A stretch of DNA of 62,083 bases from Rickettsiaceae bacterium (lineage in GTDB: Bacteria; Pseudomonadota; Alphaproteobacteria; Rickettsiales; UBA6187): contig JAJONM010000001.1 in the NCBI GenBank assembly GCA_021323415.1, positions 1 through 62,083 on the forward strand, read 5' to 3'. Below, in pieces: positions 46,893 through 51,675 of the stretch. Both the position numbers and the translations under genes were made by a program. Numbering within the stretch: the stretch's first letter is position 1; every line of letters starts with the position of its first letter. The notes below the pieces were generated by a model. That model was not told the DNA's origin. It saw only the letters and a list, made by a program, of their open reading frames with translations, and searched no databases.

Positions 46893-49289
46893 ATGTTAAA
46901 AGGCCTATTCAAACCTAAAAAGACTAATGATATTAGGCTGGAAGTTCCTGTTCCTGATCTGATCCCTTACGCCTGCCACTATGATGCTGATACCATACTG
47001 ACTAAGAATGGTGAGTTGTTGCAAGTTATTAAGATTACAGGGTTCTCAAACGAGGCAATAGGCTCAGAAAATCTTGATTTGCGTCAACTGGTGCGGCAAG
47101 CTGTTCTGGATAATATAAAAAGTGATGATATAGCATTATGGATCCATACGGTACGTCGCAAAAATAATCTTGATCCAGGCGGAGATTTTACTGCGGGCTT
47201 TTCTTATGATTTGAATAAAGCATGGAAAAAACGCCACAAATGGGAAGAGACTTATGTAAACGAAGTTTATATTACAATTATAAGGGATGGCATACCTGCT
47301 GATCTTTTAAACCCGAGCGAATTTTTGCAATCAATTTATTTTGGTGCATTAAGATATAAGCATGAGAAATTCTTCGAAAAGGCGCATGCAGAATTAGTTA
47401 AAATTGTAGATGGTATGCTTACAACATTAGCGCCTTTTGGCGTGCGCAGGCTTACTATAACAGAAGATAAGGGAGTTTTTTACTCAGATCAGCTGCAGTT
47501 TTTTGCAAAAATTTTGAGCTTGGTAGAAATGCCAGTACCTGTGCCTATTAACGACCTTTCATCATATCTAGCAAATCATAGTATTGCTGTAGGTTTTGAT
47601 ACTATGGAGATAAGGAGTAAGGCTGGCAAACATTTTGGTGTGATATTTGGTTTTAAGGAGTATCATGAATTACCTGCTGCGAGTTTAGATAAGATACTGC
47701 AATTGCCACAGGAGTTTATTATTACACAGACTCTTGATTTCATTAATTGTAAGAAGGCTATTAAAGAATTTAAAAGGCAAAAATATATGCTTTCTGCAGG
47801 GCGCGATGATGCTCTTGCTGAAGCAATTGGCCTAGACTTTGTTATAAACAGTGATAATGGAAGCGCGACTGCATTTGGTGATAGTCAGATTACTATTTTC
47901 CTCATGAGCAATGATTTAAAGACTCTGGAAAAAAATATTGATTTAGCGACTGAAAGAATGGATAGCCTTGGTATTATGGCCGTACGCAGGGACCTTAGGA
48001 TGGAAGAGTCATTCTGGGGGCAGTTGCCTGGTAACTTCTCATATCTTTCTAAAAAAAGAGCGATTAGCACGTCATTAGTTGGCGGTTATGCATCCTTATA
48101 TAATTTTCCTGCAGGGAAACGTGCAGGAAATTTATGGGGACCGGCTGTTACGATGTTCCATACAGCTGAAGGAACGCCATATTTCTTTAGCTTTCATGAC
48201 GGTGATAATGGACATACAGCAATTATTGGACCGCATGGTATGGGAAAAACAGTGCTAATGAACTTTCTGGTTTCAGAATCCAGAAAATTTAATGGCCGCT
48301 TATTTGTTATAGACCAGGAGCGGGCTTCTAAGATTTTTATAACAGCAATAGGTGGTAAATATACTATTATTAAGCCAAGAGTGGCTGATCATGAATATGC
48401 TTATAACCCATTTAACTTACCTGATACAAAAGAGAACAGAAAGTTCCTTTATCAATGGATGGTACTGCTTGCTGAGGCAGCTGGTGAGGCAACAAAACCA
48501 GAAGAAAAAGAACATTTAGCCAGAATAGTCGATTATATATACACGTTGCCACTTGAGCAGAGAAGACTAAGGAGTGTTGCTAAATCATTTGGTGATATAG
48601 TACCAGGTAGTTTAGCGGAGCGCATGTCTATATGGTATGGCGATGGTAAGTATGCGCATTTATTTGATAATGATATACCAAATTATATACCGCTTGATGG
48701 GATGGTATACGGTTTTGGCGTAAGTTGGGTTCTGGAAGATTGGATTAGCCTTGGGCCTGTAGTTTCTTATTTGTTCCACTGCATAGAAATAGTTTTAGAT
48801 GGGATACCAACTGTTATTGTGCTCGAAGAAGCGTGGAATCTGGTAAATAACCCGATATTTGCACCAGGTTTGGCTAGTTGGCTTGAGCGTTTAAGAAAAA
48901 AGAATGCATTAGTGATATTTGCAACTGAAACTATACCTAATGATGGTAAAGATATTATGACCAGTACAGTTACAAAAGCTATTGCTACGAAAATATTCTT
49001 ACCAAACTTAGATGCTGAGGATTCAAGCCGTGCTTACAAGGCGGTTTGGGGCCTGACAGATGAGGAATTTGAGACTTTAACGCGTATGCGTATTGAAAAG
49101 CGGCAGTTTATGTTGAAGCAGGATAATCGCTCTGTGGTTGCAGCTCTTGACTTGGGAGGATTAAAAGAGGTAGAAGCCTTGTCAGGTAATGATAAAGCTG
49201 TTACAATAATGGAAAGCGCTATAGCTGAAAAAGGGGACAATCCTGAGGATTGGTTGCCATTATTTTATGAAAAAAAGCAAAACCTTTAG
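46893..49289 (+). CDS. virB4: Type IV secretion ATPase VirB4/TrbE family
   Basis: 798 aa. GGAG SD. The N-terminus (IPYACHYDADTILTKNGELLQVIKITG) is typical of VirB4. Walker A is GPHGMGKT (48228-48251) and Walker B-like is VIVLEEAW. Confidence 0.85.
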   Translation: MLKGLFKPKKTNDIRLEVPVPDLIPYACHYDADTILTKNGELLQVIKITGFSNEAIGSENLDLRQLVRQAVLDNIKSDDIALWIHTVRRKNNLDPGGDFTAGFSYDLNKAWKKRHKWEETYVNEVYITIIRDGIPADLLNPSEFLQSIYFGALRYKHEKFFEKAHAELVKIVDGMLTTLAPFGVRRLTITEDKGVFYSDQLQFFAKILSLVEMPVPVPINDLSSYLANHSIAVGFDTMEIRSKAGKHFGVIFGFKEYHELPAASLDKILQLPQEFIITQTLDFINCKKAIKEFKRQKYMLSAGRDDALAEAIGLDFVINSDNGSATAFGDSQITIFLMSNDLKTLEKNIDLATERMDSLGIMAVRRDLRMEESFWGQLPGNFSYLSKKRAISTSLVGGYASLYNFPAGKRAGNLWGPAVTMFHTAEGTPYFFSFHDGDNGHTAIIGPHGMGKTVLMNFLVSESRKFNGRLFVIDQERASKIFITAIGGKYTIIKPRVADHEYAYNPFNLPDTKENRKFLYQWMVLLAEAAGEATKPEEKEHLARIVDYIYTLPLEQRRLRSVAKSFGDIVPGSLAERMSIWYGDGKYAHLFDNDIPNYIPLDGMVYGFGVSWVLEDWISLGPVVSYLFHCIEIVLDGIPTVIVLEEAWNLVNNPIFAPGLASWLERLRKKNALVIFATETIPNDGKDIMTSTVTKAIATKIFLPNLDAEDSSRAYKAVWGLTDEEFETLTRMRIEKRQFMLKQDNRSVVAALDLGGLKEVEALSGNDKAVTIMESAIAEKGDNPEDWLPLFYEKKQNL

Positions 49290-51675: not shown

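What the first reader, a model, noticed from the sequence alone, without database searches (positions are those of the whole stretch)
46893..51675. Orphan virB4 overlapping an unclassifiable 802-aa Cys-rich, glycine-zipper and glycine-rich-domain protein
What the sequence shows:
- A full-length VirB4-type ATPase with an intact Walker A (GPHGMGKT) stands without any recognisable virB2, B3, B6, B8-B11 or D4 gene in this window.
- Its upstream neighbour is a RodZ-like gene.
- Its last 23 nt overlap the start of an 802-aa ORF. That ORF has a signal-like N-terminus, about 32 cysteines, and a glycine-zipper hydrophobic hairpin (AGSIAGGMAIGYFFGPLGPAVGALIGGLVVAI).
- The C-terminal ~200 aa carry the pattern V.LWGAGAGG...GGGAGGY.......G....VVVGAGGAG. 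To me this resembles the bacterial/phage 'glycine-rich domain' family that also occurs in the ALK/LTK ectodomain.

By eye the protein is not VirB5-like (small and helical) and not VirB6-like (polytopic).

From established knowledge, Rickettsiales-type T4SS genes are scattered and include extra VirB4 paralogs. I know of no described partner like this one.

My inference is that the pair forms a unit in which the ATPase energises export or surface display of the Cys-rich protein, or that the protein is a novel T4SS outer component or adhesin.
Basis: partly seen in the sequence, partly recalled or inferred. Interest (0 to 1): 0.85.

Follow-up and report, generated by a model that had tools for sequence, protein, structure and literature searches.

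The report
Undescribed surface-protein partner of RvhB4-II
The "orphan" VirB4 is the already published second VirB4 copy (RvhB4-II) of a Rickettsiales type IV secretion system, and the 802-aa cysteine-rich gene overlapping its end belongs to an undescribed protein family that always sits directly after this VirB4 copy and probably acts as a surface adhesin of the system.

Summary

**VirB4.** The ORF at 46893-49289 is a full-length VirB4. It is NCBI protein MCE3231789.1, which Lehman et al. 2024 already list as RvhB4-II of MAG "Rickettsiaceae bacterium C_No_T20_B_bin.41". That genome also has an RvhB4-I elsewhere, so the gene is orphan only within this window. Walker A is intact. Walker B reads EEAW instead of DEAW.

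**The 802-aa protein (X, 49267-51675).**
- It has a signal peptide and 32 cysteines.
- Its conserved N-module (~190 aa) matches no Pfam family and no PDB fold.
- A glycine-zipper-like hairpin is present in 53 of 68 relatives.
- Its C-terminal Gly_rich_2 domain resembles phage fibre tips and the ALK/LTK ectodomain.

**The pair.** Every N-module homolog whose context I could read (12 distinct loci, at least 7 different neighbourhoods) lies directly after a VirB4. Eight of them overlap it, and VirB2 pilin genes often lie upstream. VirB4 and X co-diverge, and X evolves much faster.

**Reading.** Most likely X is a T4SS-linked surface adhesin in the virB5 position, with RvhB4-II as its assembly partner. 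Export powered by ATP is not shown, and the ATPase motifs have eroded in several X-linked VirB4s.

**Verdict.** The VirB4 is already known; the partner family appears to be undescribed.

The parts
46893..49289 (+). rvhB4-II: full-length VirB4-family ATPase paralog (798 aa; NCBI MCE3231789.1)
   Evidence: Pfam CagE_TrbE_VirB 2.4e-34. TIGR00929 scores 588.5 bits, below its 643.1 cutoff. End-to-end alignment with TrwK, E 4e-88. Exact-sequence look-up gives MCE3231789.1, which Table S1 of PMC11077975 lists as RvhB4-II.
48228..48251 (+). Walker A motif GPHGMGKT (VirB4 aa 446-453), intact
   Evidence: Aligned with TrwK GQSSSGKT. Motif table of 120 homologs.
48819..48836 (+). Walker B region VLEEAW (VirB4 aa 643-648), with Asp replaced by Glu
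   Evidence: TrwK has VFDEFW at this position. 93 of 120 homologs have VL-DEAW; only the window and its 3 closest relatives have EEAW.
49267..49289 (+). 23-nt overlap between the end of rvhB4-II and the start of X, if X starts at Met1
   Evidence: Sequence read directly. Overlaps of 8-38 nt occur in 8 of 12 loci (gene calls). NCBI instead starts X at 49306.
49267..51675 (+). X: 802-aa secreted, Cys-rich modular protein (NCBI MCE3231790.1, annotated hypothetical), founding example here of the VirB4-II-linked N-module family
   Evidence: ORF. 32 Cys. 14 close homologs. About 75 family representatives in the exhaustive profile search.
49267..49365 (+). Predicted Sec signal peptide (aa 1-33, MKKSK...FYFSPNSFA|S)
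   Evidence: Read from the sequence: basic n-region, hydrophobic core, SFA|S cleavage site. The AF2 model has an N-terminal helix at aa 7-27. 62 of 68 family members have a signal-peptide-like N-terminus. No dedicated predictor was available.
49444..50031 (+). Family-defining N-module (aa ~60-255) with motifs C..RFCAR, LCAYEDPMDGMD, NHxV and GCVDLP..PPPFC
   Evidence: Invariant columns in the 19-, 50- and 68-sequence alignments. No Pfam or NCBIfam hit. The AF2 model (pTM 0.60) has no PDB fold match, best E 0.25.
49822..49920 (+). Hydrophobic Gly/Ala-rich two-helix hairpin (aa ~186-218), glycine-zipper-like, an optional insert inside the N-module
   Evidence: Hydropathy peak. Helices 181-198 and 201-221 in the model, at low confidence. 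Gly-zipper_Omp scores 15.9 bits here and 27.6 bits in P0010. Present in 53 of 68 family members.
50032..51054 (+). Beta-rich, Cys-rich middle region (aa ~256-596), conserved only among closer relatives
   Evidence: AF2 pLDDT mostly 65-88, all-beta. Conserved Cys columns in A1. No significant fold match.
51055..51654 (+). C-terminal Gly_rich_2 domain (aa 597-796)
   Evidence: Pfam PF21722 at 1.4e-12, above threshold. Foldseek matches cyanophage Pam3 fibre 7ypx (E 7e-7) and the ALK/LTK glycine-rich domain (E 3e-5 and weaker), plus many phage and giant-virus glycine-rich-domain proteins. Present in 19 of 50 family members.

Best explanation
[quoted passage not shown] In many relatives the module has three genes: virB2, virB4-II and X.

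X is exported by Sec and folds with many disulfides in the periplasm. It has a conserved N-module that I infer docks it to the T4SS through RvhB4-II and/or the VirB2 pilin. Its variable C-terminal region here ends in a phage-fibre-like glycine-rich domain, which I infer binds a target-cell surface. X would therefore act as the system's surface adhesin. It sits in the gene position, and would play the role, that VirB5 has in canonical systems, and it resembles the Cys-rich TraN of F-type systems in function.

RvhB4-II would serve mainly as its assembly or stabilising partner rather than as a secretion motor.

**Shown:** the identity of the VirB4, the domain anatomy of X, the strict gene linkage, co-divergence, and the fast evolution of X.
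**Inferred:** physical interaction, surface location, adhesin function, and the role of RvhB4-II in assembly.
For: 1. Linkage. In 12 of 12 distinct loci VirB4 lies immediately upstream of an N-module gene. These cover at least 7 different neighbourhoods: prsA..recG, phoH..ispE, phasin..PDDEXK, fabD..ruvX..corA..aspS, and the window-type rodZ..dctP. Eight loci overlap by 8-38 nt, which suggests translational coupling.
2. VirB2/TrbC pilin genes lie directly upstream of the VirB4 in 5 of the 12 loci. This matches the published virB2-virB4-2 islet of Anaplasmataceae, which was proposed to build a variable surface organelle (PMC3556328).
3. The window VirB4 is published as RvhB4-II.
4. X has a signal peptide, and Cys residues lie on both sides of the hairpin (7 before, 25 after). 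Both parts must therefore be in an oxidising compartment.
5. The architecture is modular. The N-module is invariant while the C-termini differ: Gly_rich_2 in 19 of 50, a ConA-like lectin in 1, and nothing known in the rest. Gly_rich_2 matches receptor-binding fibre tips.
6. X is among the fastest-evolving genes in its syntenic block (41.5% identity against ~63%, and 31% against ~54%). VirB4 is among the slowest. This is typical of exposed proteins.
7. VirB4 and X co-diverge (Spearman 0.91).
8. ATPase motifs erode in several X-linked VirB4s. From the literature, a VirB4 active-site mutant still promotes T-pilus formation (cited in PMC2653234), and a VirB4-VirB8-VirB5-VirB2 pilus assembly sequence has been described (reference in PMC3556328).
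Against: - There is no direct evidence of interaction, localisation or expression.
- The N-module matches no known T4SS part by sequence or fold, so its docking role is pure inference from gene linkage.
- X is not VirB5-like in size or fold.
- This window has no virB2 next to the pair (only 90 nt between the rodZ-like gene and virB4), so a pilus link is not visible here.
- The hairpin is missing in 22% of the family, so it cannot be essential to the shared function.
- Rickettsia proper keeps virB4b alone, with no partner gene (PMC2653234), so RvhB4-II can function without X.
- AF2 confidence is moderate (mean pLDDT 65).
- All family members come from uncultured MAGs.
Confidence: 0.5

Rival explanations
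1. X is a secreted substrate (toxin or effector) of the rvh T4SS that takes a two-step route, as pertussis toxin does with the Ptl system. Sec moves it to the periplasm, it folds with disulfides there, and the T4SS then releases it. RvhB4-II would be the dedicated ATPase or receptor for this cargo.
For: Signal peptide plus many Cys. Strict linkage to a VirB4. Basal Rickettsiales are proposed to use rvh to kill other microbes (PMC11077975). The Ptl system also lacks VirB5 (PMC2653234). Variable C-termini would also fit polymorphic toxins.
Against: No toxin or enzyme domain was found in any of 50 family members. The only recurrent C-terminal domains are of binding type: phage-fibre glycine-rich domain and lectin. 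ATPase motifs have decayed in several partners, which fits poorly with an export motor. No immunity-like small gene follows X in the loci read.
Confidence: 0.2
2. X is an internal structural part of the T4SS envelope complex, periplasmic or membrane-anchored through the glycine-zipper hairpin, and is not exposed. For example, it could be a stalk or outer-membrane-associated component that works with the Rvh-II paralogs (RvhB4-II, B8-II, B9-II).
For: The invariant N-module and strict linkage suit a structural subunit. The glycine-zipper hairpin resembles those of outer-membrane lipoproteins: Gly-zipper_Omp and a weak Rick_17kDa_Anti hit. The published idea that Rvh-II proteins act together (PMC4676284) leaves room for extra partners.
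Against: X evolves very fast and has swappable C-termini, which is unusual for a buried structural part. The phage-fibre-type tip domain suggests outward binding. The hairpin is dispensable in 22% of members. Derived Rickettsiales have lost X while keeping the Rvh-II paralogs (PMC2653234).
Confidence: 0.17
3. The adjacency has no functional meaning for the T4SS. X is an independent secreted adhesin or cell-surface protein, exported by some other route, that happens to share an operon with rvhB4-II.
For: There is no sequence or fold link of the N-module to any T4SS protein. Gly_rich_2 proteins are common without any VirB4 nearby (16 of 16 unrelated loci).
Against: The pair stays together while everything around it changes, across at least 7 neighbourhoods, with overlapping reading frames and co-divergence. 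In L002 the pair has moved as a unit next to prsA-L25-pth, genes that lie 40 kb away in the window. A chance or hitchhiking link would not be expected to survive down to ~31% VirB4 identity.
Confidence: 0.1
4. X is a remnant of a prophage tail fibre.
For: The best fold matches of the C-terminal domain are phage fibre and tail proteins.
Against: No phage genes occur in the window or in any related locus. The match covers only the last 200 aa. The window's base composition shows no island around the pair. The family is defined by an N-module that is tied to VirB4.
Confidence: 0.03

Closest known systems
RvhB4-II (VirB4 paralog II of the Rickettsiales vir homolog T4SS; virB4-2 in Anaplasmataceae)
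   Same: The window VirB4 is this protein: accession MCE3231789 is listed as RvhB4-II in Table S1 of PMC11077975. It is separated from virB3/virB6 and from the other rvh islets. Relatives have virB2 genes upstream, as in Anaplasmataceae (PMC3556328). It shows a tendency to a deviant ATPase site (PMC4676284).
   Different: Here Walker A is intact and only the Walker B Asp is changed. Many X-linked copies keep canonical motifs. In Rickettsia the gene stands alone (PMC2653234), whereas here it overlaps a conserved partner gene.
VirB5 / TraC / TrwJ (minor pilin, pilus-tip adhesin of P-type T4SS)
   Same: The gene position is immediately after virB4 in a virB2..virB4..X order. X has a signal peptide. 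The inferred role is in target contact. The rvh system is described as having no VirB5 analog (PMC11077975, PMC2653234).
   Different: VirB5 is about 220 aa, a three-helix bundle with a globular appendage (PMC2653234). X is 802 aa, mostly beta and Cys-rich, with no Pfam VirB5 hit and no fold match. X is at most an analog, not a homolog.
TraN of F-type conjugation systems (Cys-rich outer-membrane mating-pair stabilisation adhesin)
   Same: From my own knowledge: TraN is a large, signal-peptide-bearing, Cys-rich T4SS accessory protein with conserved and variable regions that binds receptors on the partner cell. The overall logic is the same as that proposed for X.
   Different: No Pfam TraN hit or sequence similarity. 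It belongs to a different T4SS type (F versus P/rvh) and is not linked to VirB4/TraC in the same way. The resemblance is recalled from memory, not tested by structure.
Gly_rich_2 (PF21722) domain of phage fibre proteins and the ALK/LTK glycine-rich ligand-binding domain
   Same: The C-terminal 200 aa pass the Pfam threshold and match the Pam3 fibre and ALK/LTK glycine-rich-domain structures.
   Different: This domain is only one interchangeable module. It occurs in 19 of 50 family members and is widespread in proteins unrelated to T4SS.
Pertussis toxin / Ptl T4SS (Sec-dependent periplasmic cargo exported by a VirB5-less T4SS)
   Same: The cargo is Sec-exported and disulfide-bonded, and the T4SS lacks VirB5 (PMC2653234).
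   Different: No toxin domains in X. X is a single large modular protein rather than an AB5 assembly. The linkage is to a VirB4 paralog, not to a full ptl operon.

Membership tests
VirB4 family ATPase (Pfam PF03135 / TIGR00929) | CagE_TrbE_VirB domain and full-length collinearity with a solved VirB4 | tested here: met
   PF03135 at 2.4e-34. TrwK alignment covers aa 16-794, E 4e-88.
VirB4 family ATPase (Pfam PF03135 / TIGR00929) | Score above the curated NCBIfam cutoffs | tested here: not met
   TIGR00929 scores 588.5 against a cutoff of 643.1. PRK13898 scores 647 against 1050. Most related MAG VirB4s also fall below these cutoffs, so this reflects divergence of the clade, not decay of this gene.
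VirB4 family ATPase (Pfam PF03135 / TIGR00929) | Canonical Walker A (GxxGxGK[ST]) and Walker B (hhhhDE) | tested here: inconclusive
   Walker A GPHGMGKT is met. Walker B is VLEEAW, with Asp replaced by Glu. Catalytic competence cannot be judged from sequence.
RvhB4-II (rvh paralog II) | Assigned to the RvhB4-II orthogroup in a phylogeny that includes reference Rickettsiales sequences, with an RvhB4-I in the same genome | tested here: met
   The exact sequence is MCE3231789.1. Table S1 of PMC11077975 lists it under RvhB4-II, with RvhB4-I MCE3232986 for the same MAG. My own NJ tree is compatible but poorly resolved.
RvhB4-II (rvh paralog II) | Not clustered with virB3/virB6 or other rvh islets | tested here: met
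   No other vir gene in the 62 kb window. For contrast, L028 has VirB4 followed by TrbL/VirB6.
RvhB4-II (rvh paralog II) | Loss of conserved ATPase active-site residues (PMC4676284) | tested here: inconclusive
   Only Walker B D->E in this copy. The motifs are clearly degenerate in L003, L025 and L029 and canonical in five other X-linked copies.
VirB5 (PF07996-type minor pilin) | About 220-aa helical-bundle protein recognised by VirB5 models | tested here: not met
   No Pfam or NCBIfam hit. The model is mostly beta. No PDB match to VirB5/TraC.
VirB5 (PF07996-type minor pilin) | Signal peptide and a gene placed just after virB4 in the virB order | tested here: met
   Signal-peptide-like N-terminus. 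X is directly downstream of VirB4 in 12 of 12 loci.
VirB6 / TrbL (PF04610) | Polytopic inner-membrane protein with at least 5 TM segments and a TrbL domain | tested here: not met
   No TrbL hit. Only one hydrophobic hairpin besides the signal peptide. A true TrbL neighbour is seen in L028.
Gly_rich_2 (PF21722) | HMM score above the gathering threshold, plus the glycine-rich beta fold | tested here: met
   48.6 bits against a cutoff of 24.3. Foldseek probability 1.00 to the Pam3 fibre and to the ALK/LTK glycine-rich domain.
Glycine-zipper hairpin (PF13488 Gly-zipper_Omp, PF05433 Rick_17kDa_Anti) | HMM score above the gathering threshold | tested here: inconclusive
   The window copy scores 15.9 bits (cutoff 25). 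The homolog P0010 hairpin scores 27.6 bits. Rick_17kDa_Anti reaches only E 0.083.
TrbC/VirB2 pilin (PF04956), tested against the hairpin | Profile similarity to VirB2 | tested here: not met
   hhalign probability 0.5%. No TrbC hit on the hairpin, whereas the L004 VirB2 hits TrbC at 9e-17.
TraN (F-type Cys-rich adhesin) | Pfam TraN domain | tested here: not met
   No such hit in X or in 50 family members.

The most novel reading that the evidence does not exclude
The N-module family is the functional replacement for the 'missing VirB5' of the ancestral rvh T4SS. In this reading, virB2, rvhB4-II and X together build a surface contact organelle. X carries swappable phage-fibre-like receptor-binding tips, and RvhB4-II is its dedicated assembly factor, increasingly independent of ATPase activity. 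X was then lost when derived Rickettsiales became obligately intracellular, leaving the puzzling stand-alone, catalytically deviant RvhB4-II seen in Rickettsia.
Probability: 0.3. Interest if true: 0.8.

Novelty: new variant of a known kind. Interest (0 to 1): 0.62.

Why it matters
**The open question.** The rvh T4SS of Rickettsiales has puzzled specialists since 2009. VirB4, VirB8 and VirB9 are duplicated, the second copies look functionally compromised, and the system is described as having no VirB5 analog (PMC2653234, PMC4676284, PMC11077975). Current ideas for the Rvh-II copies, such as autoregulation of secretion, rest on the proteins alone.

**What this adds.** A strictly linked, often overlapping partner gene gives RvhB4-II a concrete candidate job: assembling or holding a surface adhesin. 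The partner has a conserved docking-type module and variable binding-type tips, and occurs in environmental lineages.

**How it can be tested.** The idea is directly testable through interaction assays, localisation, and the distribution of X along the Rickettsiales tree against lifestyle.

**Further value.**
- It defines a new protein module of about 190 aa with no Pfam family and no fold match.
- It gives another example of phage-fibre and ALK-type glycine-rich domains being reused on bacterial secretion machinery.

**Limit.** Every member comes from an uncultured MAG, and the function is inferred from gene linkage.

Tried and rejected
**Searches that failed or gave little**
2. With A1 on genome contigs the tool chose the glycine-rich motif. 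These loci still served as a negative control: none has a VirB4.
3. The search for homologous proteins with the N-module alignment returned nothing. This is unexplained, because the same fragments score 1e-20 to 1e-90 in local HMM searches.
4. The metagenome scan with an N-module motif gave only one locus, L030. It again showed VirB4 followed by X.

**Tests that did not discriminate**
5. The PRK13898 equivalog cutoff as a type I versus type II discriminator: no MAG VirB4 reaches it.
6. My NJ tree of 121 VirB4s rooted on TrwK has too little resolution, and only one VirB6-linked reference, to prove the two paralog clades. The question was settled by the accession match to the published table.

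**Ideas rejected**
7. A pilin-like hairpin homologous to VirB2: hhalign probability 0.5% and no TrbC hit.
8. A known fold for the N-module: no PDB match.
9. X as VirB6, VirB5 or TraN: no domain hits, and the wrong topology or fold.
10. Programmed -1 frameshifting at the A AAA AAG heptamer in the overlap (49270-49276). X lies in the +1 frame relative to VirB4, so a -1 slip would not enter it. The A-run simply encodes the MKK start and is not conserved in relatives.
11. A prophage origin: no phage genes anywhere nearby.
12. A terminator-like hairpin at 49831-49856 inside X is the coding sequence of the Gly-rich hairpin and is within chance expectation (6 found, 5.1 expected).

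
Full report
**1. What is there**

The window carries two co-directional ORFs, 46893-49289 (798 aa) and 49267-51675 (802 aa), which share 23 nt.

The first is a complete VirB4.
- It hits Pfam CagE_TrbE_VirB at 2.4e-34.
- It aligns end to end with the solved R388 VirB4, TrwK (aa 16-794, E 4e-88).
- Walker A is intact (GPHGMGKT).
- Walker B reads VLEEAW where TrwK has FDEFW and 93 of 120 homologs have VL-DEAW.

The upstream gene is an HTH_25 protein with a weak RodZ_C hit.

I scanned about 55 further ORFs of the window against Pfam and searched all ORFs of 80 aa or more with VirB2 queries. I found no other T4SS gene. The rest is housekeeping (mur/fts genes, clpB, uvrC, fab genes, purD, xseA, a permuted alpha tmRNA) plus two ankyrin-repeat proteins.

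**2. Identity of the VirB4**

An exact-sequence look-up shows that the VirB4 is NCBI MCE3231789.1, the 802-aa protein is MCE3231790.1 ('hypothetical protein K0R98_47'), and the RodZ-like gene is MCE3231788.1. All come from a MAG named Rickettsiaceae bacterium.

Table S1 of Lehman et al. 2024 (PMC11077975) has the columns Family, Taxon, RvhB4-I and RvhB4-II. It lists 'Rickettsiaceae bacterium C_No_T20_B_bin.41' with RvhB4-I = MCE3232986 and RvhB4-II = MCE3231789.

- The 'orphan' VirB4 is therefore the known second VirB4 paralog of the scattered rvh T4SS, and the genome has the canonical copy elsewhere.
- The literature describes rvhB4-II as standing apart from the other rvh islets and as having a deviant ATPase site (PMC2653234, PMC4676284).
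- It also lists 'no VirB5 analog' as an rvh hallmark (PMC11077975).
- MCE3231790, the partner gene, is mentioned nowhere in that paper's supplements.
- Full-text searches for such a partner found nothing.

**3. Anatomy of the 802-aa protein (X)**

- **Signal peptide.** The N-terminus looks like a Sec signal peptide (MKKSK..., hydrophobic core, SFA|S).
- **Cysteines.** X has 32 Cys.
- **C-terminus.** Pfam finds one domain, Gly_rich_2, at aa 597-796, above threshold.
- **Whole-protein model.** An AF2 model built on 8 homologs has mean pLDDT 65 and is better in the middle and C-terminus. It is mostly beta, with one two-helix hairpin at aa 181-221.
- **Fold matches of the whole model.** These concern only the C-terminal domain: cyanophage Pam3 fibre (E 7e-7), the ALK/LTK glycine-rich domain, and many phage and giant-virus glycine-rich-domain proteins.
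- **N-module.** The N-terminal ~190-aa module has invariant motifs (C..RFCAR, LCAYEDPxDGMD, NHxV, GCVDxP..PPPF). It has no Pfam or NCBIfam family. A dedicated model (pTM 0.60) has no PDB fold match, best E 0.25.
- **Hairpin.** It has glycine-zipper character. The copy in homolog P0010 passes Gly-zipper_Omp (27.6 bits), while the window's copy does not (15.9 bits). It is not VirB2-like. It is an optional insert, present in 53 of 68 family members.

**4. The family**

- The word-indexed search found only 14 homologs.
- The exhaustive profile search found 43 representatives below 1e-30, and about 75 of the top 150 carry the N-module.
- The remaining hits are generic Gly_rich_2 proteins.
- Members are 650-1560 aa with a median of 32.5 Cys, and 62 of 68 have a signal-peptide-like start.
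- Their C-termini vary. Of 50 members, 19 have Gly_rich_2, one has a ConA-like lectin domain, and the rest have nothing known.
- All named sources are uncultured MAGs labelled Rickettsiaceae, Rickettsiales, Alphaproteobacteria or Pseudomonadota bacterium.

**5. The key test: linkage**

Every N-module homolog whose context I could read lies immediately downstream of a VirB4.

| Locus | Flanking genes |
|---|---|
| Window, L001, two JGI contigs, L003 | syntenic: rodZ-like .. dctP |
| L002 | prsA / recG |
| L004 | phoH-trbC / ispE |
| L005 (and L006) | phasin-trbC / PDDEXK |
| L025 | fabD / ruvX |
| L026 | two trbC / corA |
| L027 | contig end / aspS |
| L030 | not examined (VirB4 then X) |

- That makes 12 of 12 distinct loci and at least 7 neighbourhoods.
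- Eight loci overlap the VirB4 stop by 8-38 nt.
- VirB2/TrbC genes sit just upstream in 5 of the 12 loci.
- In L002 the pair lies beside the prsA-L25-pth-ychF-FKBP block, which in the window is 40 kb away. The pair therefore moves as a unit.
- VirB4 and X similarities co-vary (Spearman 0.91 over 55 locus pairs; the pairs are not independent, so this is an effect size only).
- The 16 loci that hold only a Gly_rich_2 domain have no VirB4.
- A VirB4 at 45% identity on a 2.1-Mb contig is followed by TrbL/VirB6, which is the canonical arrangement (L028).
- Another VirB4 is followed by a 1240-aa, 63-Cys protein with a signal peptide, a Gly/Ala hairpin and a 'VPLAPGPEPCC' motif. It is below my HMM threshold, so it is a likely remote member but unproven (L029).

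**6. Rates and motifs**

- Against L001, X is 41.5% identical while the syntenic block has a median of ~63% and VirB4 is 73%.
- Against L003, X is 31% identical, the block is ~54% and VirB4 is 57%.
- Among X-linked VirB4s the catalytic motifs erode repeatedly:
  - EEAW in the window and its three closest relatives;
  - GSGRT and DESW in L003;
  - GPTNTGKA and NDAS in L025;
  - degenerate motifs in L029;
  - canonical motifs in five others.

**7. Interpretation**

Shown:
- The VirB4 is RvhB4-II.
- X is a secreted-type, Cys-rich, modular protein.
- The pair is a conserved, co-inherited and probably co-translated unit.
- X evolves fast and has interchangeable binding-type tips.

Inferred:
- The N-module docks X to RvhB4-II or the VirB2 part of the machine.
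- The C-terminal part contacts a target surface.
- RvhB4-II acts in assembly rather than as a motor.

The last inference fits three points from the literature. VirB4 takes part in a VirB4-VirB8-VirB5-VirB2 pilus assembly sequence. An active-site mutant still promotes T-pilus formation (cited in PMC2653234, PMC3556328). The virB2/virB4-2 islet of Anaplasma has been proposed to build a variable surface organelle (PMC3556328).

I put this at 0.5. The rivals are:
- a two-step secreted cargo like pertussis toxin (0.2);
- a buried structural component (0.17);
- a functionally unrelated operon neighbour (0.1);
- a phage remnant (0.03).

**8. Comparison with the known**

- The VirB4 is a member of RvhB4-II, by a published assignment with an exact accession match.
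- X is not a member of VirB5, VirB6, VirB2 or TraN. All were tested and none was met.
- X shares only gene position and a signal peptide with VirB5.
- Its C-terminus is a member of Gly_rich_2.
- The N-module defines a family that I could not find described.

**9. Verdict**

- Novelty lies in the partner family, not the VirB4: a new variant of a known kind (T4SS-associated surface or accessory protein).
- Interest is 0.62. It offers a concrete, testable handle on the long-standing RvhB4-II and missing-VirB5 puzzle, but it rests on gene linkage in uncultured MAGs.

Noticed in passing
window 3689-5209 (-) and 22768-23859 (-): Two ankyrin-repeat proteins (506 and 363 aa). Ankyrin-repeat proteins are typical candidate T4SS effectors in Rickettsiales. 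L029 also has one directly upstream of its VirB4.
   Followed up: no
window 44298-46025 (+): A 575-aa ORF with no Pfam or NCBIfam hit and a Ser-rich, probably disordered C-terminus. Its position between the dCache-HisKA kinase and the RodZ-like gene is conserved in L001, L003 and a JGI contig. Like X, it evolves fast (43-45% identity).
   Followed up: partly
window 41765-42259 (-) and 40417-40905 (+): Two small ORFs (164 and 162 aa) with no Pfam hit but conserved in position in relatives. The 164-aa one is Gly/Ala-rich. The 162-aa one has a signal-like start and evolves fast (32-44% identity).
   Followed up: no
window 46804-46892; JGI contigs of P0003 and P0004: The closest relatives carry one or two TrbC/VirB2 pilin genes between the RodZ-like gene and virB4. 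The window has only a 90-nt spacer there and L001 has 287 nt. The pilin genes were therefore lost or moved in this lineage.
   Followed up: partly
L004 2314-2676 and L005 7003-7347: The VirB2 pilins next to X-linked VirB4s end in ...GGGTGQC and ...GGDGGSC, that is, with a C-terminal cysteine. This could allow a disulfide link to the Cys-rich partner. This is speculation only.
   Followed up: no
window 49270-49276: The overlap contains A AAA AAG, the classic dnaX-type slippery heptamer, in the VirB4 reading frame. A -1 slip would not enter the X frame (X is +1), and the A-run is not conserved in relatives, so it is probably just the MKK start of X.
   Followed up: yes
window 49267 vs 49306: Annotations disagree on the start of X. 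NCBI uses Met14 (789 aa, no overlap with virB4) and JGI uses Met1 (802 aa). The homolog alignment favours Met1.
   Followed up: yes
L029 12651-16373: A 1240-aa, 63-Cys protein lies downstream of a VirB4 with degenerate ATPase motifs. It has the same architecture as X (signal peptide, Gly/Ala hairpin, 'VPLAPGPEPCC') but is below the N-module HMM threshold. The family may be wider than the HMM can see.
   Followed up: partly
X aa ~354-445 (window ~50327-50601): The N-module HMM gives weak second hits in the middle region of many family members. For example, 'VNLCAQRQC' echoes 'IRFCARKAF'. This hints at an internal duplication of the Cys-rich beta unit.
   Followed up: no
window 60314-60699: A permuted (two-piece type) alphaproteobacterial tmRNA with tag peptide ANDNFVVANDNYAPVAIAAAA.
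   Followed up: no
window 5281-11527 vs L002 562-7355: The prsA-L25-pth-ychF-FKBP block is conserved, but in L002 it lies directly next to virB4-X. This shows that the pair relocates as a unit.
   Followed up: yes
(tool behaviour): A profile search of the 5.8-billion protein set with the N-module alignment returned no hit at all, although the same fragments match dozens of proteins strongly in local HMM runs. This is unexplained.
   Followed up: no
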